Made by a program: the position numbers and the translations under genes. From the IMG/VR virus record IMGVR_UViG_2711768001_000012: DNA of 43,825 nucleotides, one strand, 5' to 3'. Of this stretch, positions 10,229 through 43,825 are shown one piece after another. The stretch comes from a virus. Lineage: Duplodnaviria; Heunggongvirae; Uroviricota; Caudoviricetes. The notes under the pieces are model-generated. The model was not told the origin of the DNA and did not search any database. It saw only the letters and a list, made by a program, of their open reading frames with translations. Each line of letters starts with the position of its first letter. Position 1 is the first letter of the stretch.

Positions 10229-10269
10229 NNNNNNNNNNNNNNNNNNNNNNNNNNNNNNNNNNNNNNNNN
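10229..10269. other. Run of 41 N (gap or masked sequence)
   Basis: Ambiguous bases; too short to hold the missing ~100 codons of the DnaC-like gene. Confidence 0.99.
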
Positions 10270-11487: not shown

Positions 11488-11625
11488 ACGTTACTAGATC
11501 AAAGAGCATTAGTTCATATGTAAATTGACATTTTTCTGGCACAGGGGAGAGCTAGCGTGGTTGTCCGCTTTGTGCCAATAGCGGACATTGCTGGCTCATG
11601 GTATGTTAGTTTAAGGAGGCAGGTT

Positions 11626-12648
11626 ATGCCCTGTATTTCGCTGTGGTATAATAGTTGCGCAATTGATACAAGGGAGCGTTACATCGTGAAAATTGTTTTC
11701 GAGGTTAATGGAAAGAAAGTTCCACTAAAATCTTTAAAATACATAAGCAAAAAAGATCAACTCGAAGTAATGAAAAACTGGTTCTTTGAAAACTTTGAAG
11801 ATCCGGCAAATGCTTGTCCGTATGAAAGTAGAGAAGGTGGCTATGCTTACATATATGGCGGGCCGTATGATGCGAGCGAAGAACTACAATCCATCTTCGG
11901 TCAATATGTTAAATCTGAGTATATTGAGGAATTAGTAGATGAATTACAAACACAATGTTTTGACTGGTCTGGAAACTCAAATAATATAGATGATTGGTAC
12001 GATGATGATATCTACGACGCTGTAACGTCTTCCGGTAATCCGTATTTAAAATTCATTGATAATATCGATAAAATAAAAAAACTTGCAAAAGATAAAACTG
12101 AACAACAGCAAAAAAACCACTTGCTTAGTTTGCTCTACACGAATGTTATTACAGCTTTGGAAACGCTTTATGTTGAGCTATTCATTAATTCTATAGAGAA
12201 AGATGATGTCTACATAGCCAATTGTATAGAAAAAGGTAAGACTGAATTTAAAGTAAGCAAAGATATTGCTGCGTTGCCTTTCAAGGGTGAACCCATCGAG
12301 AAAATTAGGGGAGAGCTAATCAGGTCAATCAAGGAACACTTGATCAGTGCAAGCTGGCATAGCACTAAAAAGGTAATCGACCGCTATGAAGCTACATTCG
12401 ATATAAAAGTACAAAAAGACTGTCCGATAGAAGCTATTGAATTGGCAACCCTCAATCGAAATCACTTAGTGCATCGTGGTGGAAAGGATAAAGAAGGGAA
12501 CCTCGTAGTGATTACAGACCAGGATCTTGAAACGCTGATTGAAAATGCATCGAACCTGGCAATTATGCTCTACAACAGTTTAAATGTAGCAACGAATAAA
12601 ACCACCATTTTGCAACCAGATGACAAACCGTTCATTCATGAATTTTAA
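11626..12648 (+). CDS. Hypothetical protein with HEPN-like Rx4H motif (cargo gene A)
   Basis: ATG 11626 preceded by AAGGAGG (11613-11619); alternative GTG start at 11686; low GC; RNHLVH motif near the C-terminus (ATLNRNHLVHRGG). Confidence 0.6.
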   Translation: MPCISLWYNSCAIDTRERYIVKIVFEVNGKKVPLKSLKYISKKDQLEVMKNWFFENFEDPANACPYESREGGYAYIYGGPYDASEELQSIFGQYVKSEYIEELVDELQTQCFDWSGNSNNIDDWYDDDIYDAVTSSGNPYLKFIDNIDKIKKLAKDKTEQQQKNHLLSLLYTNVITALETLYVELFINSIEKDDVYIANCIEKGKTEFKVSKDIAALPFKGEPIEKIRGELIRSIKEHLISASWHSTKKVIDRYEATFDIKVQKDCPIEAIELATLNRNHLVHRGGKDKEGNLVVITDQDLETLIENASNLAIMLYNSLNVATNKTTILQPDDKPFIHEF

Positions 12649-12663
12649 TAGCGCAGGTCATAC

Positions 12664-13665
12664 ATGGATATTCGCACACGAAAGACAAAATTTTTAGAGT
12701 CGTTAGATTCAACTGAAGTGATACGCAAAGCAGTAAGTCTCGCTATAGATTGCATTATTGATAATCATAATAGTAATGAAGATACCCCCTTAGTTATTAC
12801 CAGCTATGATGATCTCTGTAGAATCCAGGTGCTAAATTATGTACAGGAGTTTTGCGAAGCTGCATTCCCTGATATGGATGAATATTACTTTAGTCCTAAC
12901 ATACTTCGCATCAACGGCAAGACTAGTGAAGAAGCTTGTATTAACTTAATTAAACTCTTAAGAAGTACAAAAGGCATGCTATTCTGGTCCGATGCCCCAT
13001 CGTGGTTCGCTAGCCTCCCCGACGGATTATTCCATGTTGTTAACATTGATCAAAAAATCGTTACTCGCGGCCTTAATAAGAAAAACTCTAAGCCGACAAT
13101 AATCAATAAAGATTACAGTGTAGATACACTACTATCAGAGCTATTTTTGAATGGCGCACACATGGAGCAACCCAACGTACACAACGTTTCTGAGGGAAAC
13201 ATGAAGTTCTATGATGAATGCCATGCTGGATTAATCAGACCAATACCCGCTCCAATAGGCGCGTCATACGATGAAGAGATCACAATTAATTCTCCAGATT
13301 GGCAAAAGCTCGCGTGTGTAGCTTTACGCCGCTATCAGTCGAAGGAATGTCATGACGGAATGCAATGGGATACAACCGATCATGGTTGGACTGATGTAAT
13401 CGCGTATCCATTCGTCGAAGAAATACAATCAATGGATAATAGTGGTTATCGACAATGTTTAGTTGGGCTGGTCACAATAAACAATTCAAATGCAAATTCT
13501 CCGTACCTATCTACCGTTTGGATACATCCATTTTATCGCAGGAGAGGGTTATTAAGTAAGTTATGGCCAAAATTACAAGAGTTATATGGAAGTAACTTCG
13601 AAATTGAGCGACCTAATGAAAATATGAAAGCATTTCTGAAAAGTGCGAAACACGCAGATTACTAA
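12664..13665 (+). CDS. Hypothetical protein with tentative C-terminal GNAT-like motif (cargo gene B)
   Basis: 333-aa ORF 15 bp downstream of gene A, same strand, low GC; VWIHPFYRRRGLLSKLWPKL resembles GNAT motif A. Confidence 0.55.
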   Translation: MDIRTRKTKFLESLDSTEVIRKAVSLAIDCIIDNHNSNEDTPLVITSYDDLCRIQVLNYVQEFCEAAFPDMDEYYFSPNILRINGKTSEEACINLIKLLRSTKGMLFWSDAPSWFASLPDGLFHVVNIDQKIVTRGLNKKNSKPTIINKDYSVDTLLSELFLNGAHMEQPNVHNVSEGNMKFYDECHAGLIRPIPAPIGASYDEEITINSPDWQKLACVALRRYQSKECHDGMQWDTTDHGWTDVIAYPFVEEIQSMDNSGYRQCLVGLVTINNSNANSPYLSTVWIHPFYRRRGLLSKLWPKLQELYGSNFEIERPNENMKAFLKSAKHADY

Positions 13666-14285: not shown

Positions 14286-14624
14286 CTATTTTTTGGTGCT
14301 ATAGACTTTTTCGCCCGAAAAGTCTGGAGCGACCCAAAAGTTAATATTAAACTGAGCATCATCGCTTAGTTCAACACGGTGCCAGTATTGTGGTGGGCTT
14401 GTTGCAAAAGCGCCAGCATTAATGACTACTTTTATCTCCGGTTCAGTAGCATTCTCATCAGTAAAACCATAATATGTTACAGTGCCTTCCATTACGCACA
14501 ACTGCCCAAAAACACCTGCTGCTGTATTATGATGTGTTAATAACGCTGAAGGTACGTTCTCTTTTGTGAAGAACGGAGTTGAGCGTTTGATTACCCAATC
14601 TTTAGGAATTCTCTTGTGTGTCAT
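14286..14624 (-). CDS. DUF1971/YeaR-like protein
   Basis: 112-aa product from ATG 14624 with GGAGGAGGTGG Shine-Dalgarno; resembles E. coli YeaR as recalled from memory (HHNTAAGVFGQLCV...GTVTYYGF...PPQYWHRVE...FNINFWVAP); opposite strand to neighbours. Confidence 0.6.
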   Translation of the reverse strand: MTHKRIPKDWVIKRSTPFFTKENVPSALLTHHNTAAGVFGQLCVMEGTVTYYGFTDENATEPEIKVVINAGAFATSPPQYWHRVELSDDAQFNINFWVAPDFSGEKVYSTKK

Positions 14625-15437
14625 AACCACCTCCTCCAAAACATGCATTAAAAATGCATCTTTTGGAGGGTTATGTCAAGCTGTTATGAAACACATAATT
14701 GATATGTTGATTAGAGGAGAAGATAGAATAAATATGGTTGTTTTTCGTATAACTATTTGTTTTACTTTTAGTTTATGCATTCTGTGTGTTAGGAATAAGT
14801 TATTAAAGTTTAATCAAAAAATCTCGATGTAGTCCACATAGATTACTGTTACTGAACCTTATTGTGTGTATTAGTTGTGTTCTGAAATTTCAGCTTAATT
14901 ATTTATGATGTATTTTTTAACGATAAATATTTTCCCAGGATACCTTTACTGTGTATATAAATAAATTATATACGCATAAATAATGTAAAGGCGTCCTTTT
15001 AGATATATCTTATCAAATGTTAATGACTTGAGTGGGAAATATGATTCCAGCAACTTATCATGTGGCTACTTTATAAAAATAATGCCCATATAAAACAACA
15101 AGCGAAAAGGATTACGGATAAAAAAGGAGCGAGATGTGCGAACTTGTTATTTTCCATGTTTAACCACCTTAAATAATTGATGATGACGGGATGATTGCAT
15201 CTGTAATGCTTTTATTGAAATGTTATGATAAAAAAGAACTTTTGCATAACATTAAAATGTAATTTATCTAATCGTTTTTAATAATAAGTGTCGTATTTCT
15301 ATCCTTGTACCAGCTATTTGATATGTAGTGTTTGTTCATGCTATGTGGGGCTTTACACCATAGCCAGTTTATTTATACTTTATTCGTCAGCCTGAACAAC
15401 TGGCATCTGCTGCGCTGCGCCATCGAGAGATTGAGAA

Positions 15438-17910: not shown

Positions 17911-18339
17911 ATGGGTTTTCGTAGCGCATCAATTCTTACGTTGATTATTAGTGGGATTATTATCGGGTGCACTGATGCTGTATCGACAAATTATCATGAC
18001 CGTACATCATATTACTCCGATAAAGCAATAGAGACACAGTATGTGAGTTCATCTGAACGTACTTCTGATGTTAGTGAGGATATCCGTCTGTATGCCCATC
18101 AAATCAAGAGCGCCATCGAAAAACAGTTCGGGGATGCGAGTAAGTATTCAGGAAAAGAGTGTACACTGAGAATGCATATGGCCCCGAATGGCCTTCTACT
18201 GGAGGTTAAAAGAGAAAGTGGAGACCTCGATTTATGTCGTGAAGCGATGAATGCGATAAAGAATGCTGATATACCTGCCCCCCCTTCGCCGGAAGTATAT
18301 AAAGTATTTCAAAATGGGGTGCTGGATTTTAAACCCTGA
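17911..18339 (+). CDS. Lipoprotein with TolA C-terminal (domain III)-like domain
   Basis: Signal peptide plus lipobox IIGC; GAGGA Shine-Dalgarno; C-terminal YAHQIKSAIEKQFGDASKYSGKECTLRMHMAPNGLLLEVKRESGDLDLCREAMNAIKNADIPAPPSPEVYKVFQNGVLDFKP closely parallels the E. coli TolA C-terminus as recalled. Confidence 0.75.
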   Translation: MGFRSASILTLIISGIIIGCTDAVSTNYHDRTSYYSDKAIETQYVSSSERTSDVSEDIRLYAHQIKSAIEKQFGDASKYSGKECTLRMHMAPNGLLLEVKRESGDLDLCREAMNAIKNADIPAPPSPEVYKVFQNGVLDFKP

Positions 18340-18489: not shown

Positions 18490-18885
18490 GTGGGATTAAA
18501 GAAAATCGTTATGTTGACTTTTTGGGTCGGTTTTGTTGCGGGATGCACACCTTTACACCCTTCAGATTGCCACAAAACTACTGCTACAGGTAGTTGCAGT
18601 TCAGGACGCTGGGATGATCAGGATGAATGGGGGGCGCAAGCGCGGGGAATCAGAGCTGCAATTAATGCCAAACTTGATGAGCCGCATAACTGGAAAGGGA
18701 AAAAATGCAGGTTGCATATGGAATTCTCTCAGGATGGCACGGCGTTAAAAATATCTACCAGTAACGGTGATAAAGCCTATTGCGAAGCGATAAAGTCCGC
18801 AGCTCATAAAGCCAAATTTCCGGCCTTCAACAATCCGGAAGTCTACAGAGATTTTCAGAAATCTGGCTTTGACATGCGAGGTTAG
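18490..18885 (+). CDS. Second lipoprotein with TolA domain III-like C-terminus (paralog)
   Basis: GTG start with GAGGAG Shine-Dalgarno; signal peptide plus lipobox VAGC; C-terminus KKCRLHMEFSQDGTALKISTSNGDKAYCEAIKSAAHKAKFPAFNNPEVYRDFQKSGFDM aligns with the first lipoprotein and with TolA domain III. Confidence 0.7.
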   Translation: MGLKKIVMLTFWVGFVAGCTPLHPSDCHKTTATGSCSSGRWDDQDEWGAQARGIRAAINAKLDEPHNWKGKKCRLHMEFSQDGTALKISTSNGDKAYCEAIKSAAHKAKFPAFNNPEVYRDFQKSGFDMRG

Positions 18886-19352: not shown

Positions 19353-19853
19353 TGCCTCCATCATTACGAAAAGTCGTTGCTGCTGCTATTGGTGGCGGAG
19401 CAATTGCTATAGCATCAGTGTTAATCACTGGCCCAAGTGGTAACGATGGTCTGGAAGGTGTCAGCTACATACCATACAAAGATATTGTTGGTGTATGGAC
19501 TGTATGTCACGGGCATACAGGAAANNNNNNNNNNNNNNNNNNNNNNNNNNNNNNNNNNNNNNNNNNNNNNNNNNNNNNNNNNNNNNNNNNNNNNNNNNNN
19601 NNNNNNNNNNNNNNNNNNNNNNNNNNNNNNNNNNNNNNNNNNNNNNNNNNNNNNNNNNNNNNNNNNNNNNNNNNNNNNNNNNNNNNNNNNNNNNNNNNNN
19701 NNNNNNNNNNNNNNNNNNNNNNNNNNNNNNNNNNNNNNNNNNNNNNNNNNNNNNNNNNNNNNNNNNNNNNNNNNNNNNNNNNNNNNGCAATGGAAAGGTC
19801 TCATGACTCGTCGTGAGATTGAGCGTGAAATCTGTTTGTGGGGTCAGCAATGA
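19352..19853 (+). CDS. SAR endolysin (phage 21 R-like lysozyme), middle replaced by N-run
   Basis: N-terminal SAR segment [27 protein letters not shown]; the C-terminus [21 protein letters not shown] appears in a different frame after the N-run, so the N length is not frame-true. Confidence 0.8.
19525..19786. other. Run of 262 N inside the endolysin gene
   Basis: Ambiguous bases; flanking endolysin segments are in different frames. Confidence 0.99.
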
Positions 19854-21909: not shown

Positions 21910-22046
21910 TATATGGCTGATTTATAATTGTGAGTTTAATATTATGTTGACTCACTCATTGATCCAATACCTAACTTTACCAGCAACACCTCCGCCCCCA
22001 GTAGCACTGGCTGCTGGGGTGCGTTTTATTCATAAAGCAAGGCTGT

Positions 22047-22835
22047 ATGAGCGAGAAATTAAAGATAGTCTATCGCCCATTACAAGAATTGTCACCGTAT
22101 GCGCACAACGCCAGGACGCACAGTACTGAGCAGGTGGCACAACTGGTAGAAAGTATTAAGCAATTCGGCTGGACTAATCCGGTGCTGATTGACGAAAAGG
22201 GCGAAATTATTGCGGGTCACGGTCGTGTTATGGCGGCTGAAATGCTCAAAATGGATTCTGTTCCGGTCATTGTTCTGTCTGGCCTGACGGATGAGCAGAA
22301 AAAGGCGTACCGCCTGGCAGATAATCGCCTGCCGATGAATGCTGGCTGGGATGAAGATCTGTTGCGGATGGAGCTGTCGGACCTAATCAATGCTGATTTT
22401 GATGTCTCCCTGACAGGCTTCATCCCGGCAGAAATTGATGAACTGTTGACGGATGTTTTGCCCGGTACAGGAAATGAGGAGGAGCCGTATACGACGAAAA
22501 TTGATACGCCTGTTTATGAGCCGTCAGGCGGTAAACCGGATATCAGTGAACTGTACGACGATACGAAAACTCAGGAGCTGATCAGCCGGATACGTTCGGC
22601 GTCCCTTGATCCTGATATTGAGAAATTCCTCCTGTGTGCAGCAGAACGTCACACGGTGTTTAATTTCAGCAGAATTGCGGACTATTACGCTCATGCCCCC
22701 GCTGAAATTCAGTGCCTTTTCGAGGAGTCGGCGCTGGTGATCATTGATTATCAGCAGGCTATTGAAAATGGATTTGTCCGAATGACGCAGCGCATGGTGG
22801 AGATCATGCATGGCGGGGAGGAGGAATATGCGTGA
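22047..22835 (+). CDS. ParB-like nuclease domain protein
   Basis: N-terminal ParB/Srx-like domain (KIVYRPLQELSPYAHNARTH...IIAGHGRVMAA); located just upstream of the terminase genes. Confidence 0.65.
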   Translation: MSEKLKIVYRPLQELSPYAHNARTHSTEQVAQLVESIKQFGWTNPVLIDEKGEIIAGHGRVMAAEMLKMDSVPVIVLSGLTDEQKKAYRLADNRLPMNAGWDEDLLRMELSDLINADFDVSLTGFIPAEIDELLTDVLPGTGNEEEPYTTKIDTPVYEPSGGKPDISELYDDTKTQELISRIRSASLDPDIEKFLLCAAERHTVFNFSRIADYYAHAPAEIQCLFEESALVIIDYQQAIENGFVRMTQRMVEIMHGGEEEYA

Positions 22836-23760
22836 TGATTTTTGCGCCTTTATTCTGACTCACGGGCGACCGGACAAAGTTCTGACTTACCGGACGTTGC
22901 GTCGTGCTGGCTATACCGGGAAAATTTTTATCGTTGTTGATGATGAAGATAAGACACGGCATCAGTACATGGCTGAATTTGGTGAACAGGTGCTGGTATT
23001 TTCCAAAGCCGATATTGCTAGTCGTTTTGACGAAGCCGATAATTTTAGTGACCGCCGCTCAATTTTTTACGCCCGTAATGCCTGTTTCGACCAGGCAAAA
23101 CTGGTCGGGTGTAAATACTTCATTCAGCTCGATGATGATTATCACGAGTTCCAGTTTCGGGTGGATCGCAACTATGACCAGGCCTATTTCCCGATAAGGA
23201 AACTGGATGAGATCCTTTCTGAAATGCTTGCGTACTACGAATCAATACCTGCTCTTTCCATCGCTATGTCGCAGGGCGGGGATTTTCTTGGTGACAATGG
23301 CGGCCATGCTTCGTGGGTGAAACGCAAGGCAATGAACAGCTTTATCTGTTCGGTTGATCGACCGTTCTCATTCATGGGGCGCATTAACGAGGATGTGAAT
23401 ACGTACACGAATCTCGGTCGCTGTGGTGAATTGTTTATGACGATCGGTGCTGTCCAGTTAGGGCAGAAACAGACGCAGAAAAACAGCGGCGGAATGACCG
23501 AGCTGTATCTGGATTCCGGAACCTACGTTAAAAGTTTTTACTCCGTCATGTATGCGCCGTCGTGCGTAAAAATCTCACTTATGGGTGCCAGTCATAAACG
23601 CATTCACCATCAGGTCACCTGGAACAACGCTGCAGTAAAAATCCTTCACGAAAAATACAGGAAGAAGACACCCTGCATATCAATGGGGGTGACAAATGAT
23701 TCCGTATTCGAAAGTCGAGTCTCTGGCAGCGTGCCGGATGACTGCACAACAAATCGCTGA
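22828..23760 (+). CDS. Hypothetical protein, possible GT-A-like glycosyltransferase fold
   Basis: ATG 22828 preceded by GGGAGGAGGA; weak motif evidence only (FILTHGRPD at N-terminus, QLDDDYHEF DxD-like). Confidence 0.4.
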   Translation: MRDDFCAFILTHGRPDKVLTYRTLRRAGYTGKIFIVVDDEDKTRHQYMAEFGEQVLVFSKADIASRFDEADNFSDRRSIFYARNACFDQAKLVGCKYFIQLDDDYHEFQFRVDRNYDQAYFPIRKLDEILSEMLAYYESIPALSIAMSQGGDFLGDNGGHASWVKRKAMNSFICSVDRPFSFMGRINEDVNTYTNLGRCGELFMTIGAVQLGQKQTQKNSGGMTELYLDSGTYVKSFYSVMYAPSCVKISLMGASHKRIHHQVTWNNAAVKILHEKYRKKTPCISMGVTNDSVFESRVSGSVPDDCTTNR

Positions 23761-23947
23761 CGTTCTGGATGTTGATCTGAACCGACTGAAAGAAAATCGG
23801 GAAGCAATGACAGATTTTTATGCGGCCATCCGTAAGGGCAGAGCGAAAGGTGAAGCCGAGTTACGAGCGGCATTGTTTAAGCTTGCCAGAAAAGGGGATG
23901 CCTTTGCTCTGCGCGAACTACTCAGGGTGGATAAAAATCAGGACTAA
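23696..23947 (+). CDS. Small hypothetical protein upstream of terminase
   Basis: 83-aa ORF with GGGGTGA Shine-Dalgarno; overlaps the 3' end of the preceding gene. Confidence 0.35.
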   Translation: MIPYSKVESLAACRMTAQQIADVLDVDLNRLKENREAMTDFYAAIRKGRAKGEAELRAALFKLARKGDAFALRELLRVDKNQD

Positions 23948-23950
23948 CTG

Positions 23951-25045
23951 ATGAGCAGACCGGACTGGGGGGCGTTGCAGCAGGAGTATATTGCTGAATA
24001 CACCCGCTCCGGTATATCTCCGGTGGCATGGTGTGAAGCAAGGGGACTGAATTACGCAACAGCCCGTCGTTACATCAAAAAAACTCCGAAAAATGCGCAG
24101 ACAGAAATGTGCAAAACTGCGCAAAAAAGTGCGCAGAAAAAATCTGCGCAGACTGCACAAAAGCGGAACGAAAAATCTCAGGAAAAAAAGCCAGTATTCG
24201 ATGCGGGCCTGAATGAGGGCGACGCGGAGGAATTTTCGTTCTGTCCCGATGAATTCGGCATTTCTGACCAGCAGGCTAAGTTTGCGATGCTTGTTGCTCA
24301 GGGTAAAAAGCCGACAGAGGCGTACCGACTAGCCGGTTATGAGGGGCAAGGTGCGACAGCTAACAGCAACGCCAGTCGTATGCTTAGAAATGCCAGGGTT
24401 TTTCGCGCTATCAGCTACTTCCGCAATCAGTACCAGAAACGCTATACCGCAGACCTGGATTTACTAGTGAGTCAGTTGATGGCTATTGTCCTGGCCGACC
24501 CCAATCAGCTTGCACAATTTCGCCGTGTTAACTGCCGTTATTGCTGGGGCGAGAATCATCTCTACCAGTGGCGCGATATAGCAGAATTCGACAAGGCAGC
24601 GGCGCAGGCTTCCAGAGATGGCAAACCCGAACCGGAATATGGAGGCCTCGGCTTTGTTGATAACGCCATACCCAATCCGGACTGCCCGAAGTGCTGCGGT
24701 GAGGGAACGGGACAGCTTTATATGGCTGATACCACTCTGCTTGATGGGGATGCGCGGCAATTATATGCAGGGGCAAAATTCGGAAAATTCGGCGTTGAGA
24801 TCCTGCTGGAGGATAAGGCTGCCGCCCGGCGTGAATTGTTGCGTTTGTTTTCTGCTGGCGGGGCTTTATGTGCAGATAAGCGGCTACGGGAACTGGAAAT
24901 TGAACGGCGCAGAATGGAAAACCAGAAGCTGCGCAAAGAGATCGAAACGGTGGAAGATAATGAACATCCCCAGCCTGTGGCGATCAATATTAATGTGGTT
25001 GATGCCAGAGTAAGGAGTGATGAAGATGATCTCTCCGACGCTTAA
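23951..25045 (+). CDS. Putative terminase small subunit
   Basis: N-terminal HTH-like region, basic linker and Cys cluster (NCRYCWGE...DCPKCCGEG); directly upstream of and overlapping the large terminase. Confidence 0.55.
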   Translation: MSRPDWGALQQEYIAEYTRSGISPVAWCEARGLNYATARRYIKKTPKNAQTEMCKTAQKSAQKKSAQTAQKRNEKSQEKKPVFDAGLNEGDAEEFSFCPDEFGISDQQAKFAMLVAQGKKPTEAYRLAGYEGQGATANSNASRMLRNARVFRAISYFRNQYQKRYTADLDLLVSQLMAIVLADPNQLAQFRRVNCRYCWGENHLYQWRDIAEFDKAAAQASRDGKPEPEYGGLGFVDNAIPNPDCPKCCGEGTGQLYMADTTLLDGDARQLYAGAKFGKFGVEILLEDKAAARRELLRLFSAGGALCADKRLRELEIERRRMENQKLRKEIETVEDNEHPQPVAININVVDARVRSDEDDLSDA

Positions 25046-26327
25046 TGTGCCTCAGGCGCGATTTCTTTCAATGCCCCATAAATTTAAAGCCTATATTGCT
25101 GGTTTTGGCTCGGGCAAAACATGGGTTGGGTGTGGCGGCATATGCAAGGGGATTTGGGAGCATCCAGGTATAAATCAGGGATATTTTGCGCCAACGTATC
25201 CCCAAATTCGCGATATTTTTTACCCTACAGTGGAAGAAGTTGCTGCTGACTGGGGATTGAACGTAAAAATTAATGAGGGAAATAAAGAGGTTCACTTTTA
25301 TTACGGACGCCAGTATCGGGGAACCACTATCTGCAGATCGATGGAGAAGCCACAAACGATCGTCGGTTTCAAAATTGGTAATGCGTTGGTGGATGAACTG
25401 GACATTTTGCCGAAGGAAAAAGCCAGAACGGCGTGGCGCAAGATAATTGCACGTATGCGTTATAAGATTGATGGACTTCGCAACGGTATTGACGTTACAA
25501 CCACGCCGGAAGGATTCAAATTTGTCTACGAGCAGTTTGTTAAAGCCGTGCGTGAAAAAACAGAGCTGGCCTCACTGTATGGTCTGGTGCAGGCATCTAC
25601 TTTCGATAATGAAAAGAACCTGCCAGCAGATTACATTCCTTCGCTTCTTGAATCATACCCTCCAGAGCTGATTAAAGCCTATCTTCGAGGACAGTTTACT
25701 AACCTGACAAGTGGTACTGTTTACCATCAGTTTGACCGGAAACTGAATAATTGCGAAGAAGTGGAGCAGCCAGGGGAGCCGATTTATATTGGGATGGATT
25801 TTAACGTTGGAAAGATGGCGGGAATCGTCCATGTGCTGCGTTTGGGGCTTCCATGTGCGGTAACTGAAATCATCAATGCCTACGATACGCCGGATATGAT
25901 CCGCATCATTAAAGAACGCTTCTGGCTGTATGATGGGAATGATTACCGGAAAGTGAGGGAAATTTATATTTATCCAGATGCTTCCGGGGATTCCAGAAAA
26001 TCAAGTAACGCAAGTACGACGGATATAGCCCAGCTTAAGCAGGCTGGTTTTAACGTTGTGGTGAACAGCTCGAACCCGCCAGTAAAAGATCGCGTTAACT
26101 CAATGAATGCAATGTTCTGCAATGCCAATGGTGAGCGTCGCTATAAAGTTAATGTGAAGCGTTGCCCGTTATATGCCGAATCTCTGGAGCAACAGGTCTG
26201 GGATGAGAAGGGGGAGCCTGATAAAAAATCTGGCAATGATCACCCGAATGATGCCGGAGGTTATTTCATCGTTAAGCAATTCCCTATTGTCAAACCGACC
26301 GGAAGAGTCACATCACTTCGGATTTAA
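25017..26327 (+). CDS. Terminase large subunit
   Basis: Walker A-like AGFGSGKTWVG near the N-terminus; 436 aa; followed by the portal gene. Confidence 0.8.
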   Translation: MMKMISPTLNVPQARFLSMPHKFKAYIAGFGSGKTWVGCGGICKGIWEHPGINQGYFAPTYPQIRDIFYPTVEEVAADWGLNVKINEGNKEVHFYYGRQYRGTTICRSMEKPQTIVGFKIGNALVDELDILPKEKARTAWRKIIARMRYKIDGLRNGIDVTTTPEGFKFVYEQFVKAVREKTELASLYGLVQASTFDNEKNLPADYIPSLLESYPPELIKAYLRGQFTNLTSGTVYHQFDRKLNNCEEVEQPGEPIYIGMDFNVGKMAGIVHVLRLGLPCAVTEIINAYDTPDMIRIIKERFWLYDGNDYRKVREIYIYPDASGDSRKSSNASTTDIAQLKQAGFNVVVNSSNPPVKDRVNSMNAMFCNANGERRYKVNVKRCPLYAESLEQQVWDEKGEPDKKSGNDHPNDAGGYFIVKQFPIVKPTGRVTSLRI

Positions 26328-40099: not shown

Positions 40100-40448
40100 N
40101 NNNNNNNNNNNNNNNNNNNNNNNNNNNNNNNNNNNNNNNNNNNNNNNNNNNNNNNNNNNNNNNNNNNNNNNNNNNNNNNNNNNNNNNNNNNNNNNNNNNN
40201 NNNNNNNNNNNNNNNNNNNNNNNNNNNNNNNNNNNNNNNNNNNNNNNNNNNNNNNNNNNNNNNNNNNNNNNNNNNNNNNNNNNNNNNNNNNNNNNNNNNN
40301 NNNNNNNNNNNNNNNNNNNNNNNNNNNNNNNNNNNNNNNNNNNNNNNNNNNNNNNNNNNNNNNNNNNNNNNNNNNNNNNNNNNNNNNNNNNNNNNNNNNN
40401 NNNNNNNNNNNNNNNNNNNNNNNNNNNNNNNNNNNNNNNNNNNNNNNN
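40100..40448. other. Run of 349 N covering the I/J junction
   Basis: Ambiguous bases hide the 3' end of I and the 5' end of J. Confidence 0.99.

Positions 40449-43825
<3,377 letters not shown>

What the first reader, a model, noticed from the sequence alone, without database searches (positions are those of the whole stretch)
22047..23760. ParB-like nuclease-domain protein paired with a possible GT-A-like enzyme just upstream of the terminase
A 262-aa protein with a clear ParB/Srx-type N-terminal domain (GHGRVMAA) is followed, with overlap, by a ~310-aa soluble protein whose FILTHGRPD start and QLDDD motif suggest a nucleotide-sugar transferase fold. A pair in this position, between the trkG moron and the packaging genes, could be a DNA modification or anti-restriction module acting on packaged DNA rather than a structural function. 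The second assignment rests on motifs only.
Basis: inference. Interest (0 to 1): 0.5.

Follow-up and report, generated by a model that had tools for sequence, protein, structure and literature searches.

The report
Phage ParB-like partner plus TAGT glycosyltransferase
Two overlapping late genes of a Rac-like E. coli prophage encode a ParB-fold adaptor and a GT-A sugar transferase that occur as a fixed pair, usually just before the DNA-packaging genes, in viruses of bacteria and archaea; the pair probably adds sugar to phage DNA, yet these genomes lack the enzyme that normally makes the attachment point.

Summary
ORF 22047-22835 is ynaK: a ParB/Srx-fold protein with an unclassified acidic C-terminal domain. 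ORF 22828-23760 is a GT-A glycosyltransferase of Pfam family TAGT (E 4e-34) with its catalytic motifs intact. The genes overlap by 8 nt and lie in the late operon, directly upstream of the terminase genes.

The main result is the linkage. In about 240 related loci and six cultured phage lineages, every TAGT of this subfamily with readable upstream DNA has the ynaK-type partner next to it (one locus, L244, is too truncated to show the C-terminal domain). These loci span more than 15 phyla and include a haloarchaeal virus. About 10-15% of partners have no ParB domain. So the constant part is the linker motif Y-[TS]-x-K-x3-P-x-Y-x-P plus the C-terminal domain.

No annotated or Pfam-detectable TET/JBP, thymidylate-synthase-like enzyme or DNA methylase is present here or in complete phage c5. 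The usual hydroxymethyl-pyrimidine acceptor therefore has no evident source.

Best reading (confidence about 0.5): a self-contained, ParB-assisted DNA glycosylation module, analogous to the ParB-activated phage thymine dioxygenases published in 2026. The main rival is glycosylation of the partner protein itself.

It is a new variant of a known kind, present in about 30% of complete E. coli genomes and directly testable.

The parts
22047..22835 (+). ynaK-type gene: 262-aa acidic (pI 4.5, net charge -24) ParB/Srx-fold partner protein
   Evidence: ORF. Pfam ParB_N 8.7e-7 and phrog_620 1.7e-90. RefSeq name ynaK. Charge.
22047..22346 (+). aa 1-100: ParB/Srx nucleotide-binding domain (N21, G57-H58-G59-R60 aligned to ParB box II GERR, D92-N93)
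22347..22451 (+). aa 101-135: short helical segment after the ParB domain
   Evidence: AF2 helices 103-115, 120-123 and 127-134. This region is covered by the methylase-N-terminus matches (aa 3-141 and 10-144).
22488..22523 (+). aa 148-159: near-universal linker motif Y-[TS]-x-K-[IV]-x-x-P-x-Y-x-P (YTTKIDTPVYEP) inside a segment predicted disordered
   Evidence: pLDDT below 50 for aa 137-170. Y148 98%, T/S149 97%, K151 87%, P155 98%, Y157 100% over 153 sequences. The motif is kept in partners that lack the ParB domain.
22557..22811 (+). aa 171-255: acidic all-helical C-terminal domain, in no Pfam family; the constant partner element of this TAGT subfamily
   Evidence: R201, A211, Y214, E226 and D234 are 100% conserved. 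It stands alone upstream of TAGT in about 10-15% of loci. Pfam gives only sub-threshold hits to PF23887. No structural match.
22817..22825 (+). Shine-Dalgarno GGAGGAGGA for the transferase gene, lying inside the end of ynaK
   Evidence: Read directly from the sequence.
22828..23760 (+). 310-aa TAGT-family GT-A glycosyltransferase (RefSeq 'GREB1-related protein'); its start overlaps the ynaK stop by 8 nt
23131..23139 (+). D102-D103-D104: DxD-type metal/nucleotide-sugar motif of the transferase
   Evidence: Invariant in A1 and at least 90% in A3. Corresponds to the R...DDD...ED active-site signature described for phage GT-A DNA glycosyltransferases (bioRxiv 10.1101/2023.12.21.572611).
23512..23691 (+). 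aa 229-288: conserved basic C-terminal extension of the transferase beyond the Pfam TAGT model (GTYVKSFY...RIHH..W)
   Evidence: The Pfam match ends at aa 228 of the 316-aa frame. Invariant G231, T232, Y233, K235, R258, H260, H261 and W265. Net charge +7, pI 9.8. Low model confidence.
23696..23947 (+). 83-aa helix-turn-helix ORF (RefSeq calls 23738-23947) that overlaps the transferase 3' end; a small-terminase-like accessory
   Evidence: phrog_309 'terminase small subunit' 8.3e-23. Annotated as hypothetical protein.
23951..26327 (+). Terminase small (23951-25045) and large (25017-26327) subunit genes; the conserved downstream neighbours of the pair
   Evidence: Pfam Terminase_2 and Terminase_6N/6C. 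Terminase genes follow the pair in most related loci.

Best explanation
The two genes form one translationally coupled, self-contained enzyme system of the phage late operon. The 310-aa protein is an active GT-A (TAGT-family) glycosyltransferase that uses a nucleotide sugar. The 262-aa YnaK-type protein is its obligate partner. Its linker motif and acidic C-terminal domain bind or regulate the transferase, possibly through the transferase's basic C-terminal extension. Its ParB/Srx nucleotide-binding domain, the same kind that is fused to phage DNA methylases, couples the enzyme to double-stranded phage DNA, as ParB176 does for the thymine dioxygenase 5mYOX176. The system would glycosylate newly replicated phage DNA shortly before or during packaging and so protect it from host nucleases after injection. 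Shown here: the folds, the intact catalytic motifs, the gene overlap, the near-absolute co-occurrence, the position next to the terminase genes, and the absence of a recognisable hydroxymethyl-pyrimidine pathway. Inferred: that the two proteins interact physically, that DNA is the acceptor, that the ParB domain acts as loader or activator, and the anti-restriction role. Unknown: the acceptor atom and the sugar.
For: Family and fold of the transferase. Catalytic R14, D102-104, N187-E188-D189 and Q149/G151/D152 are invariant or nearly so. Characterised TAGT-family GT-A enzymes act on DNA or on sugars attached to DNA (PMC13216743; bioRxiv 2023.12.21.572611).

Obligate pairing. The partner is adjacent in 80/80 close viral loci. 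It is adjacent in 75 and one gene away in 3 of 80 diverse viral loci (40-46% identity); the other 2 start at a contig edge. In 80 species-representative genomes from more than 15 phyla there are 58 full-length and 13 CTD-only partners; 4 loci have no upstream DNA, 4 of the 5 oddly classified loci carry the CTD on inspection, and L244 is cut at a contig edge. The pair is also present in Lactobacillus phages c5 and phi jlb1, halovirus HHTV-2, Nocardia phage NTR1, a Porphyromonas phage (27% identity) and Vibrio 191-kb phages.

Pairwise identities of partner CTD and TAGT correlate (Pearson r = 0.71).

The flanking genes differ: the pair sits next to several terminase families or inside replication modules. 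The substrate must therefore be universal or encoded within the pair.

Link of the ParB module to DNA-modifying enzymes: aa 3-144 match methylase N-termini. In L131 a ParB_N-N6_N4 methylase fusion lies directly upstream of the pair.

Precedent: phage ParB-like proteins with the same layout (nucleotide-binding domain, short helices, about 50 disordered residues, CTD, no DNA-binding domain) are required activators of a DNA-modifying enzyme on dsDNA (PMC13229309).

Charge complementarity: partner net -26, transferase C-terminal extension +7.
Against: No annotated or Pfam-detectable TET/JBP, C5-methylase, thymidylate-synthase-like or dCMP/dUMP hydroxymethylase gene occurs in this prophage or in the complete 31.8-kb phage c5. 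The hydroxymethyl group used by every characterised DNA-directed TAGT therefore has no evident source. Sugar transfer by a GT-A enzyme to a canonical DNA base has no precedent known to me.

The partner is strongly acidic and has no recognisable DNA-binding domain. About 10-15% of partners lack the ParB domain, so DNA loading by ParB cannot be essential to the chemistry.

One TAGT-domain protein, human GREB1, glycosylates a protein (PMC7968844). The authors of the 2023 survey judged GT contigs without a base-modification gene 'less likely' to act on DNA.

The models of both C-terminal regions are poor. No experiment on this pair was found.
Confidence: 0.5

Rival explanations
1. Protein glycosylation contained within the pair. 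The transferase attaches sugar to the partner protein at the invariant Tyr/Thr of the disordered linker motif (Y148, T/S149, Y157), in the manner of glycogenin or GREB1. The glycosylated acidic protein is then the functional product, for example a nuclease decoy, a packaging factor or an injected protein.
For: The motif lies in a segment predicted disordered, yet it is the most conserved part of the partner. Tyr is not replaced by Phe (Y157 100%; Y148 98% with Phe under 1%), and position 149 is Thr or Ser in 97% of sequences, the pattern expected when the hydroxyl groups matter. The motif is kept in partners without a ParB domain. No hydroxymethyl-base pathway is present. A protein-directed TAGT exists in GREB1 (PMC7968844). 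The substrate would travel with the pair, which explains its portability.
Against: Most characterised TAGT-family members act on DNA. The ParB module is the type fused to DNA methylases and sits beside one in L131. A conserved linear motif is equally well explained as a docking or pseudo-substrate peptide. No data show any glycosylation of this protein.
Confidence: 0.25
2. Two unrelated functions that merely sit together. The ParB-like protein is a packaging accessory or nuclease, like the HNH proteins next to cos sites, or a partition/regulatory protein as its annotation says. The glycosyltransferase is an independent accessory gene that modifies virion proteins or host envelope glycans.
For: Phage records annotate the first gene as 'chromosome (plasmid) partitioning protein'. 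The pair usually abuts the terminase genes. One related phage (L247) also carries four GT2 genes after its capsid gene, as in phages that glycosylate their virions. PDB GT-A neighbours include wall-teichoic-acid and protein glycosyltransferases.
Against: The two genes overlap and stay adjacent in essentially all of about 240 loci across bacteria and archaea, next to different terminase families or even in replication modules. The element that is always kept is the non-ParB C-terminal domain. No ParA gene and no HTH domain are present, and the TIGR00180 score is below cutoff (38.1 vs 58.45). The transferase has no membrane segment. Hosts with entirely different envelopes (E. coli, Lactobacillus, Nocardia, Haloarcula) carry the same pair.
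Confidence: 0.1
3. Ordinary TAGT chemistry after all. The transferase glycosylates 5hmC or 5hmU that is made by an unrecognised, highly divergent oxygenase or hydroxymethylase encoded elsewhere in these genomes.
For: PMC13229309 reports thousands of 5mYOX-like contigs that escape the Pfam TET/JBP model, and lists GTs, ParBs and terminases as the domains that most often co-occur with 5mYOX. Phage genomes contain many hypothetical proteins.
Against: Annotation of this prophage and Pfam scans of its unassigned ORFs show no candidate. Phage c5 has only small unassigned ORFs (the largest is 208 aa) and no such enzyme. No recurrent third gene accompanies the pair in 84 diverse loci; the clusters seen in at least 4 loci and checked are terminases, NinG, an HTH protein, DUFs and a sugar dehydratase. 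No TET_JBP appears in the Pfam-annotated neighbourhoods.
Confidence: 0.1

Closest known systems
ParB-dependent phage thymine dioxygenases (5mYOX176 with ParB176; O'Toole et al., PNAS 2026, PMC13229309)
   Same: A phage ParB-like protein with a nucleotide-binding domain, a short helical segment, a disordered linker of about 50 aa and a C-terminal domain, and no DNA-binding domain. It is encoded next to a post-replicative DNA-modifying enzyme and is often near terminase genes. The YnaK model has the same layout.
   Different: The partner enzyme here is a GT-A glycosyltransferase, not an Fe/2OG dioxygenase, and no dioxygenase is present. Here the C-terminal domain alone can be the partner, whereas in ParB176 both domains were needed. 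Homology of the two C-terminal domains could not be tested because the published sequences are not held.
TET/JBP-associated glycosyltransferases and other phage GT-A DNA glycosyltransferases (Pfam PF20691; Iyer et al. 2013; Burke et al. 2021, PMC8256090; Pyle et al. 2023/2024)
   Same: Same Pfam family, GT-A fold and R...DDD...ED active-site signature. Phage-encoded and soluble.
   Different: Those enzymes act on 5hmC made by an adjacent C5-methylase and TET. No such genes exist here. This subfamily carries an extra conserved basic C-terminal extension and an obligate YnaK-type partner.
T2/T6 beta-glucosyl-HMC-alpha-glucosyltransferase (the PHROG label attached to this protein)
   Same: Assigned to the same Pfam family (PMC13216743).
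   Different: The T6 enzyme adds a second glucose to alpha-glucosyl-hmC in a phage that makes hmC before replication. tblastn with the window protein finds no T-even phage except Aeromonas phage 65 and its relatives at 22% identity. The label is a family name, not a function for this protein.
ParB_N-DNA methyltransferase fusions of phages and prophages (phrog_498; PADLOC MTase_II; Kaljevic et al., PNAS 2025, PMC12704722)
   Same: The first 140 or so residues (ParB domain plus following helices) are closely related (6e-51 and 1.5e-38). Both are prophage-enriched. One fusion sits directly upstream of the pair in L131.
   Different: In the fusions the enzyme is covalently attached and is a methylase. 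Here the ParB module carries a non-catalytic-looking acidic domain, and the enzyme is a separate, translationally coupled protein.
Canonical partition ParB / Noc / KorB CTPase clamps
   Same: Fold, and part of the nucleotide-binding signature (G57..R60 aligned to GERR; N93).
   Different: No HTH DNA-binding domain, no ParA gene, and below the TIGR00180 cutoff. The Glu of GERR is His or Asn and the first Arg is not kept.

Membership tests
Pfam PF20691 TAGT (GT-A DNA-associated glycosyltransferases) | Sequence match above the curated gathering score over the whole model | tested here: met
   118.8 bits vs 27.5, profile positions 4-205 of 205. 119 of the 120 listed homologues carry PF20691 alone or with other domains.
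Pfam PF20691 TAGT (GT-A DNA-associated glycosyltransferases) | GT-A fold with the R...DDD...ED active-site residues | tested here: met
Pfam PF20691 TAGT (GT-A DNA-associated glycosyltransferases) | Genomic association with an enzyme that makes hydroxymethyl-pyrimidine (TET/JBP with C5-methylase, or a thymidylate-synthase-like hydroxymethylase) | tested here: not met
   None in the annotation of this prophage or in Pfam scans of its unassigned ORFs. None in the complete phage c5 genome or in the Pfam-annotated neighbourhoods.
Pfam PF20691 TAGT (GT-A DNA-associated glycosyltransferases) | Transfer of a sugar to 5hmC or 5hmU in DNA, or to a sugar attached to them | not testable with these tools
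   Needs LC-MS of DNA or an enzyme assay.
ParB/Srx superfamily (PF02195) | Sequence match above the gathering score, and the ParB/Srx fold | tested here: met
ParB/Srx superfamily (PF02195) | Conserved box II arginine and other phosphate-binding residues | tested here: met
   R60 90%, N93 95%, N21 99%, R/K23 88% over the partners that carry the domain. Aligned to GERR and the ENxx Asn of Noc. Nucleotide binding itself was not tested.
Canonical partition ParB (TIGR00180, ParABS) | HTH DNA-binding domain, neighbouring parA, family score above cutoff | tested here: not met
   TIGR00180 38.1 vs cutoff 58.45. No HTH domain found. No parA in the prophage.
ParB-type activators of phage DNA-modifying enzymes (PMC13229309) | Architecture: nucleotide-binding domain, short helices, long disordered linker, CTD; no DNA-binding domain | tested here: met
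   AF2 model: domain aa 1-95, helices 103-134, pLDDT below 50 for 137-170, helical 172-254. Compared with the description.
ParB-type activators of phage DNA-modifying enzymes (PMC13229309) | Encoded next to its cognate DNA-modifying enzyme and required for that enzyme's activity on dsDNA | tested here: inconclusive
   Adjacency to an enzyme is essentially absolute. But the enzyme is a glycosyltransferase whose substrate is unknown, and the requirement cannot be tested here.
ParB_N-DNA methyltransferase fusions | Methyltransferase catalytic domain fused to the ParB module | tested here: not met
   Only the N-terminal 140 or so residues match. The C-terminal 120 residues match no methylase and no Pfam family.

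The most novel reading that the evidence does not exclude
The pair is a complete two-protein DNA glycosylation system that needs no hydroxymethyl handle. It would attach a sugar directly to a canonical base, the backbone or a DNA end of the phage genome around the time of packaging. That would be a new kind of DNA modification, carried by about a third of E. coli genomes and by viruses of most prokaryotic phyla.
Probability: 0.2. Interest if true: 0.9.

Novelty: new variant of a known kind. Interest (0 to 1): 0.6.

Why it matters
Phage DNA glycosylation is understood only where a hydroxymethyl-pyrimidine is made first. Recent papers note that a large share of phage TAGT or GT-A genes are 'solitary' and leave their function open: 288 of 753 genomes in PMC13216743, and about 65% of GT contigs in the 2023 survey.

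This finding gives those orphans a defined context. They are not solitary. They come with an obligate, previously undescribed partner domain, usually fused to a ParB nucleotide-binding module, and they sit at the head of the packaging operon.

If the target is DNA, this is a widespread, TET-independent modification that could affect restriction, CRISPR and modification-dependent defences, as well as sequencing of prophage-derived DNA. If the target is the partner protein, it is a new use of a DNA-glycosyltransferase family.

Either outcome can be tested in E. coli with two genes, because intact copies occur in hundreds of sequenced strains and in phage isolate records.

Tried and rejected
- **Partition function of the first gene.** Rejected: no ParA, no HTH, below the TIGR00180 cutoff, and the element is an integrated prophage.
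- **Hidden base-hydroxymethylating enzyme.** Pfam scans of the unassigned prophage ORFs found nothing relevant. ORFs 11557-12648 and 12664-13665 gave only weak, sub-cutoff HEPN/RES-NTD and GNAT hits. Full annotation of phage c5 found nothing either.
- **Rosetta-stone fusions of partner and transferase.** None convincing. P0081 and P0222 look like read-through or deletion chimeras. The real fusions of this TAGT subfamily are to class I SAM methyltransferases, a sulfotransferase and a second TAGT. These indicate further glycan tailoring but do not identify the acceptor.
- **PDB sequence search with the transferase profile.** Nothing significant.
- **Defence-system membership.** PADLOC had no hit for the transferase and only the methylase N-terminus for the partner.
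- **Literature on ynaK or on ParB with TAGT.** No functional study was found. Iyer et al. 2013 (PMC3763556) is not held. Supplementary sequences of the ParB176 paper are not held, so the two CTDs could not be compared.
- **Promoter and terminator scan.** Only a terminator-like hairpin between trkG and ynaK; no promoter excess.
Full report
**Context.** The window is a full-length Rac-like lambdoid prophage of E. coli. A 2.1-kb stretch around the finding is 100% identical to strain EC2. In that genome it lies between recET/kilR/sieB, replication genes, a Q-like antiterminator, lysis genes and trkG on one side, and terminase, portal, capsid and tail genes on the other. The same stretch is found in 1610 of 5426 complete E. 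coli genomes, at 80% coverage or more in 867, and in ten phage records.

The first, 22047-22835, is ynaK.
- Residues 23-90 pass the Pfam ParB_N threshold, and the whole protein matches phrog_620 at 1.7e-90.
- GHGR aligns with the box II GERR of Noc/Spo0J.

The second ORF most probably starts at ATG 22828.
- That start follows a GGAGGAGGA Shine-Dalgarno sequence and overlaps the ynaK stop codon by 8 nt, which suggests translational coupling.
- It gives the 310-aa protein that RefSeq calls 'GREB1-related protein'.
- It matches the whole Pfam TAGT model at 4.1e-34 and phrog_842 at 8e-104.
R14, D102-D104, N187/E188/D189 and Q149/G151/D152 are invariant or nearly so in alignments down to about 34-44% identity. 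They fit the R...DDD...ED signature described for phage GT-A DNA glycosyltransferases.
- Both proteins lack membrane segments.

**The main finding: an obligate pair.** The TAGT subfamily is very large. More than 7700 clusters at 90% identity score below 1e-5, and 1323 representative clusters at 50% identity score below 1e-3. I fetched three sets of related loci and searched the upstream DNA with a profile of the YnaK family.
- *Close viral loci.* The partner ORF lies immediately upstream and overlaps the transferase in 80 of 80 loci. trkG is present only in the E. coli subset, and the terminase large subunit is often of another type.
- *Diverse viral loci (40-46% identity).* The partner is adjacent in 75 of 80 and one gene away in 3. 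The other 2 begin at a contig edge.
- *Species-representative genomes.* The 80 loci come from more than 15 phyla, among them Bacteroidota, Firmicutes, Proteobacteria, Verrucomicrobiota, Acidobacteriota, Saccharibacteria and Planctomycetota, plus an archaeon. There are 58 full-length partners and 13 with only the C-terminal domain. Four loci have no upstream sequence. Of the five classified oddly, four carry the C-terminal domain on inspection; L244 is cut at a contig edge and shows only the ParB part.
- *Cultured viruses*. Lactobacillus phage c5 has ORF1 and ORF2 directly after the cos site, and TerL follows two small ORFs later. Phage phi jlb1 has ParB-TAGT-TerS-TerL-portal. Haloarchaeal virus HHTV-2 has gp21-gp22. 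Nocardia phage NTR1 has orf1-orf2-TerL. A Porphyromonas phage at only 27% identity has ParB-TAGT-TerS-TerL. Vibrio 191-kb phages have a 139-aa partner plus TAGT.
- *Downstream genes.* In 84 diverse loci the commonest downstream genes are a small HTH terminase subunit at +1 and a large terminase subunit at +2 (49 loci). In several loci the pair sits in a replication module instead.
- *Co-inheritance.* Pairwise identities of partner and transferase correlate (Pearson r = 0.71).

**Anatomy of the partner.** The ParB domain is dispensable in about 10-15% of loci. Partners there are proteins of 123-148 aa that begin just before the linker motif. Over 157 partners, conservation is as follows.

| Region | Conserved residues |
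|---|---|
| Linker motif (predicted disordered) | Y148 98%, T/S149 97%, K151 87%, P155 98%, Y157 100%, P159 67% |
| C-terminal helical domain | R201, A211, Y214, E226, D234 100%; Q222 94% |
| ParB domain (when present) | N21 99%, G57 100%, H/N58 98%, R60 90%, N93 95% |

The C-terminal domain belongs to no Pfam family. Three diverged sequences gave only sub-threshold PF23887 hits, and it has no structural match. The partner is strongly acidic: median pI 4.4 and net charge about -26, concentrated in the linker and C-terminal domain. The transferase is mildly basic and has a conserved basic extension (aa 229-288, +7) beyond the Pfam model. When present, the ParB module with its following helices (aa 3-144) is much closer to the N-termini of phage DNA methyltransferases than to partition ParBs (phrog_498 6e-51; PADLOC MTase_II 1.5e-38). 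In locus L131 a ParB_N-N6_N4 methylase fusion lies directly upstream of the pair and a small terminase subunit gene follows it.

**What is missing.** Characterised DNA-directed TAGT or GT-A enzymes need 5hmC or 5hmU, or a sugar already attached to them.
- The RefSeq annotation of this prophage and Pfam scans of its unassigned ORFs show no TET/JBP, C5-methylase or thymidylate-synthase-like enzyme.
- The complete 31.8-kb genome of phage c5 has none, and no unassigned ORF large enough to hide one.
- Pfam-annotated neighbourhoods of two further homologues have none.
- No third gene recurs with the pair.

So the pair is self-sufficient, or it uses something universal.

**Interpretation.** The pair moves between unrelated viruses with different terminases, capsids and hosts. 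Its acceptor must therefore be common to all of them (DNA or nucleotides) or be encoded in the pair (the partner).

I favour DNA, with confidence about 0.5, for four reasons:
- the family precedent;
- the methylase-type ParB module;
- the tandem arrangement with a ParB-methylase fusion;
- the 2026 demonstration that a phage ParB-like protein of the same architecture is a required activator of a thymine dioxygenase on dsDNA. In that work GTs, ParBs and terminases were the domains that most often co-occurred with the dioxygenase (PMC13229309).

Earlier authors had proposed that ParB proteins direct modification enzymes to DNA during packaging (Iyer et al. 2013, as cited).

In this model the linker motif and C-terminal domain hold or regulate the transferase. 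The ParB domain adds nucleotide-gated coupling to dsDNA.

The serious rival (about 0.25) is that the invariant Tyr/Thr motif of the partner is itself the acceptor. Tyr is never replaced by Phe, and Thr/Ser are interchangeable, as expected if the hydroxyl groups matter. GREB1 also shows that a TAGT domain can glycosylate a protein.

Independent functions, or a hidden oxygenase, are less likely (about 0.1 each).

**Comparison with the literature.**
- The label 'beta-glucosyl-HMC-alpha-glucosyltransferase' is a family name carried over from T2/T6. tblastn finds no T-even homologue except Aeromonas phage 65 and its relatives at 22% identity.
- Recent work notes many 'solitary' TAGT or GT-A genes and leaves their role open.
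- The ParB-fold survey of 2025 describes methylase and DUF fusions but no glycosyltransferase partner.
- I found no paper that treats ynaK, or a ParB protein paired with a TAGT that lacks a dioxygenase.

I therefore classify this as a new variant of a known kind: a ParB-partnered nucleic-acid-modifying enzyme, and a TAGT without TET. The acceptor is unresolved, and that is the interesting part.

**Limits.**
- Everything about interaction, substrate and biological role is inference.
- Both C-terminal regions are poorly modelled.
- The published ParB176 sequence and Iyer et al. 2013 were not available.
- My test for hidden oxygenases rests on annotation and Pfam only.

Noticed in passing
L001 20148-20405 (= window 22047-22304), and one search hits P0192-P0240: RefSeq/PGAP annotates ynaK in genomes whose 2.1-kb region around the gene is 100% identical to the window as a pseudogene 'missing C-terminus' covering only the first 86 codons, although the 262-codon ORF is intact. 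The conserved C-terminal domain therefore goes unannotated. Many E. coli database proteins are the N-terminal 60% or so of YnaK joined to Lom, tail-fibre or terminase fragments, which suggests recurrent deletion end-points inside this gene.
   Followed up: partly
window 11557-12648 and 12664-13665 (+): Two adjacent unassigned ORFs (363 and 333 aa) lie between the replication genes and the Q region. They give only weak, sub-cutoff hits: HEPN/RES N-terminal domain (1.9e-4) and GNAT (9e-4). No PADLOC match. This is a possible accessory or defence cassette. The second ORF is frameshifted in strain EC2.
   Followed up: partly
window 17911-18339 and 18490-18885 (+): Two phage-encoded proteins with a TolA C-terminal domain (2.4e-23 and 1.3e-14) sit just upstream of the lysis cassette. 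They might interfere with Tol-dependent colicin or filamentous-phage entry.
   Followed up: no
window 21996-22029 (+): A 10-bp GC-rich hairpin followed by TGCGTTTTAT lies between trkG and ynaK. It looks like the terminator of the trkG insertion, which late-operon transcription would have to read through.
   Followed up: no
window 10229-10269, 19525-19786, 40100-40448, 41410-41607, 41879-42120, 43095-43463: Runs of N (masked sequence). One interrupts the lysozyme gene. None touches the two genes studied.
   Followed up: yes
window 14286-14648 (-): A DUF1971 (TehB-related) gene lies on the opposite strand, in a low-GC stretch between the unassigned cassette and the nin-like genes. It looks like another inserted accessory gene.
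   Followed up: no
proteins P0248, P0252, P0290, P0266, P0268; loci L140 and L152 (gene between partner and TAGT); L082 14059-15018: Relatives of the transferase are fused to or flanked by class I SAM methyltransferases, a Sulfotransfer_2 domain, a second TAGT domain and a UDP-sugar 4,6-dehydratase (Polysacc_synt_2). In some viruses the transferred glycan therefore appears to be extended, methylated or sulfated, or built from an unusual sugar.
   Followed up: partly
L247 17837-20316 (and L248 8659-11138): A phage carrying the ParB-TAGT-terminase arrangement also has three to four consecutive GT2 glycosyltransferase genes just after its capsid gene. This resembles the virion-glycosylation clusters of mycobacteriophages.
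   Followed up: no
window 23696-23947 (+): An 83-aa HTH ORF matches the middle of a small-terminase family (phrog_309) and lies directly before the 364-aa small terminase subunit gene. The DNA-recognition part of the packaging enzyme may be split between two proteins.
   Followed up: no
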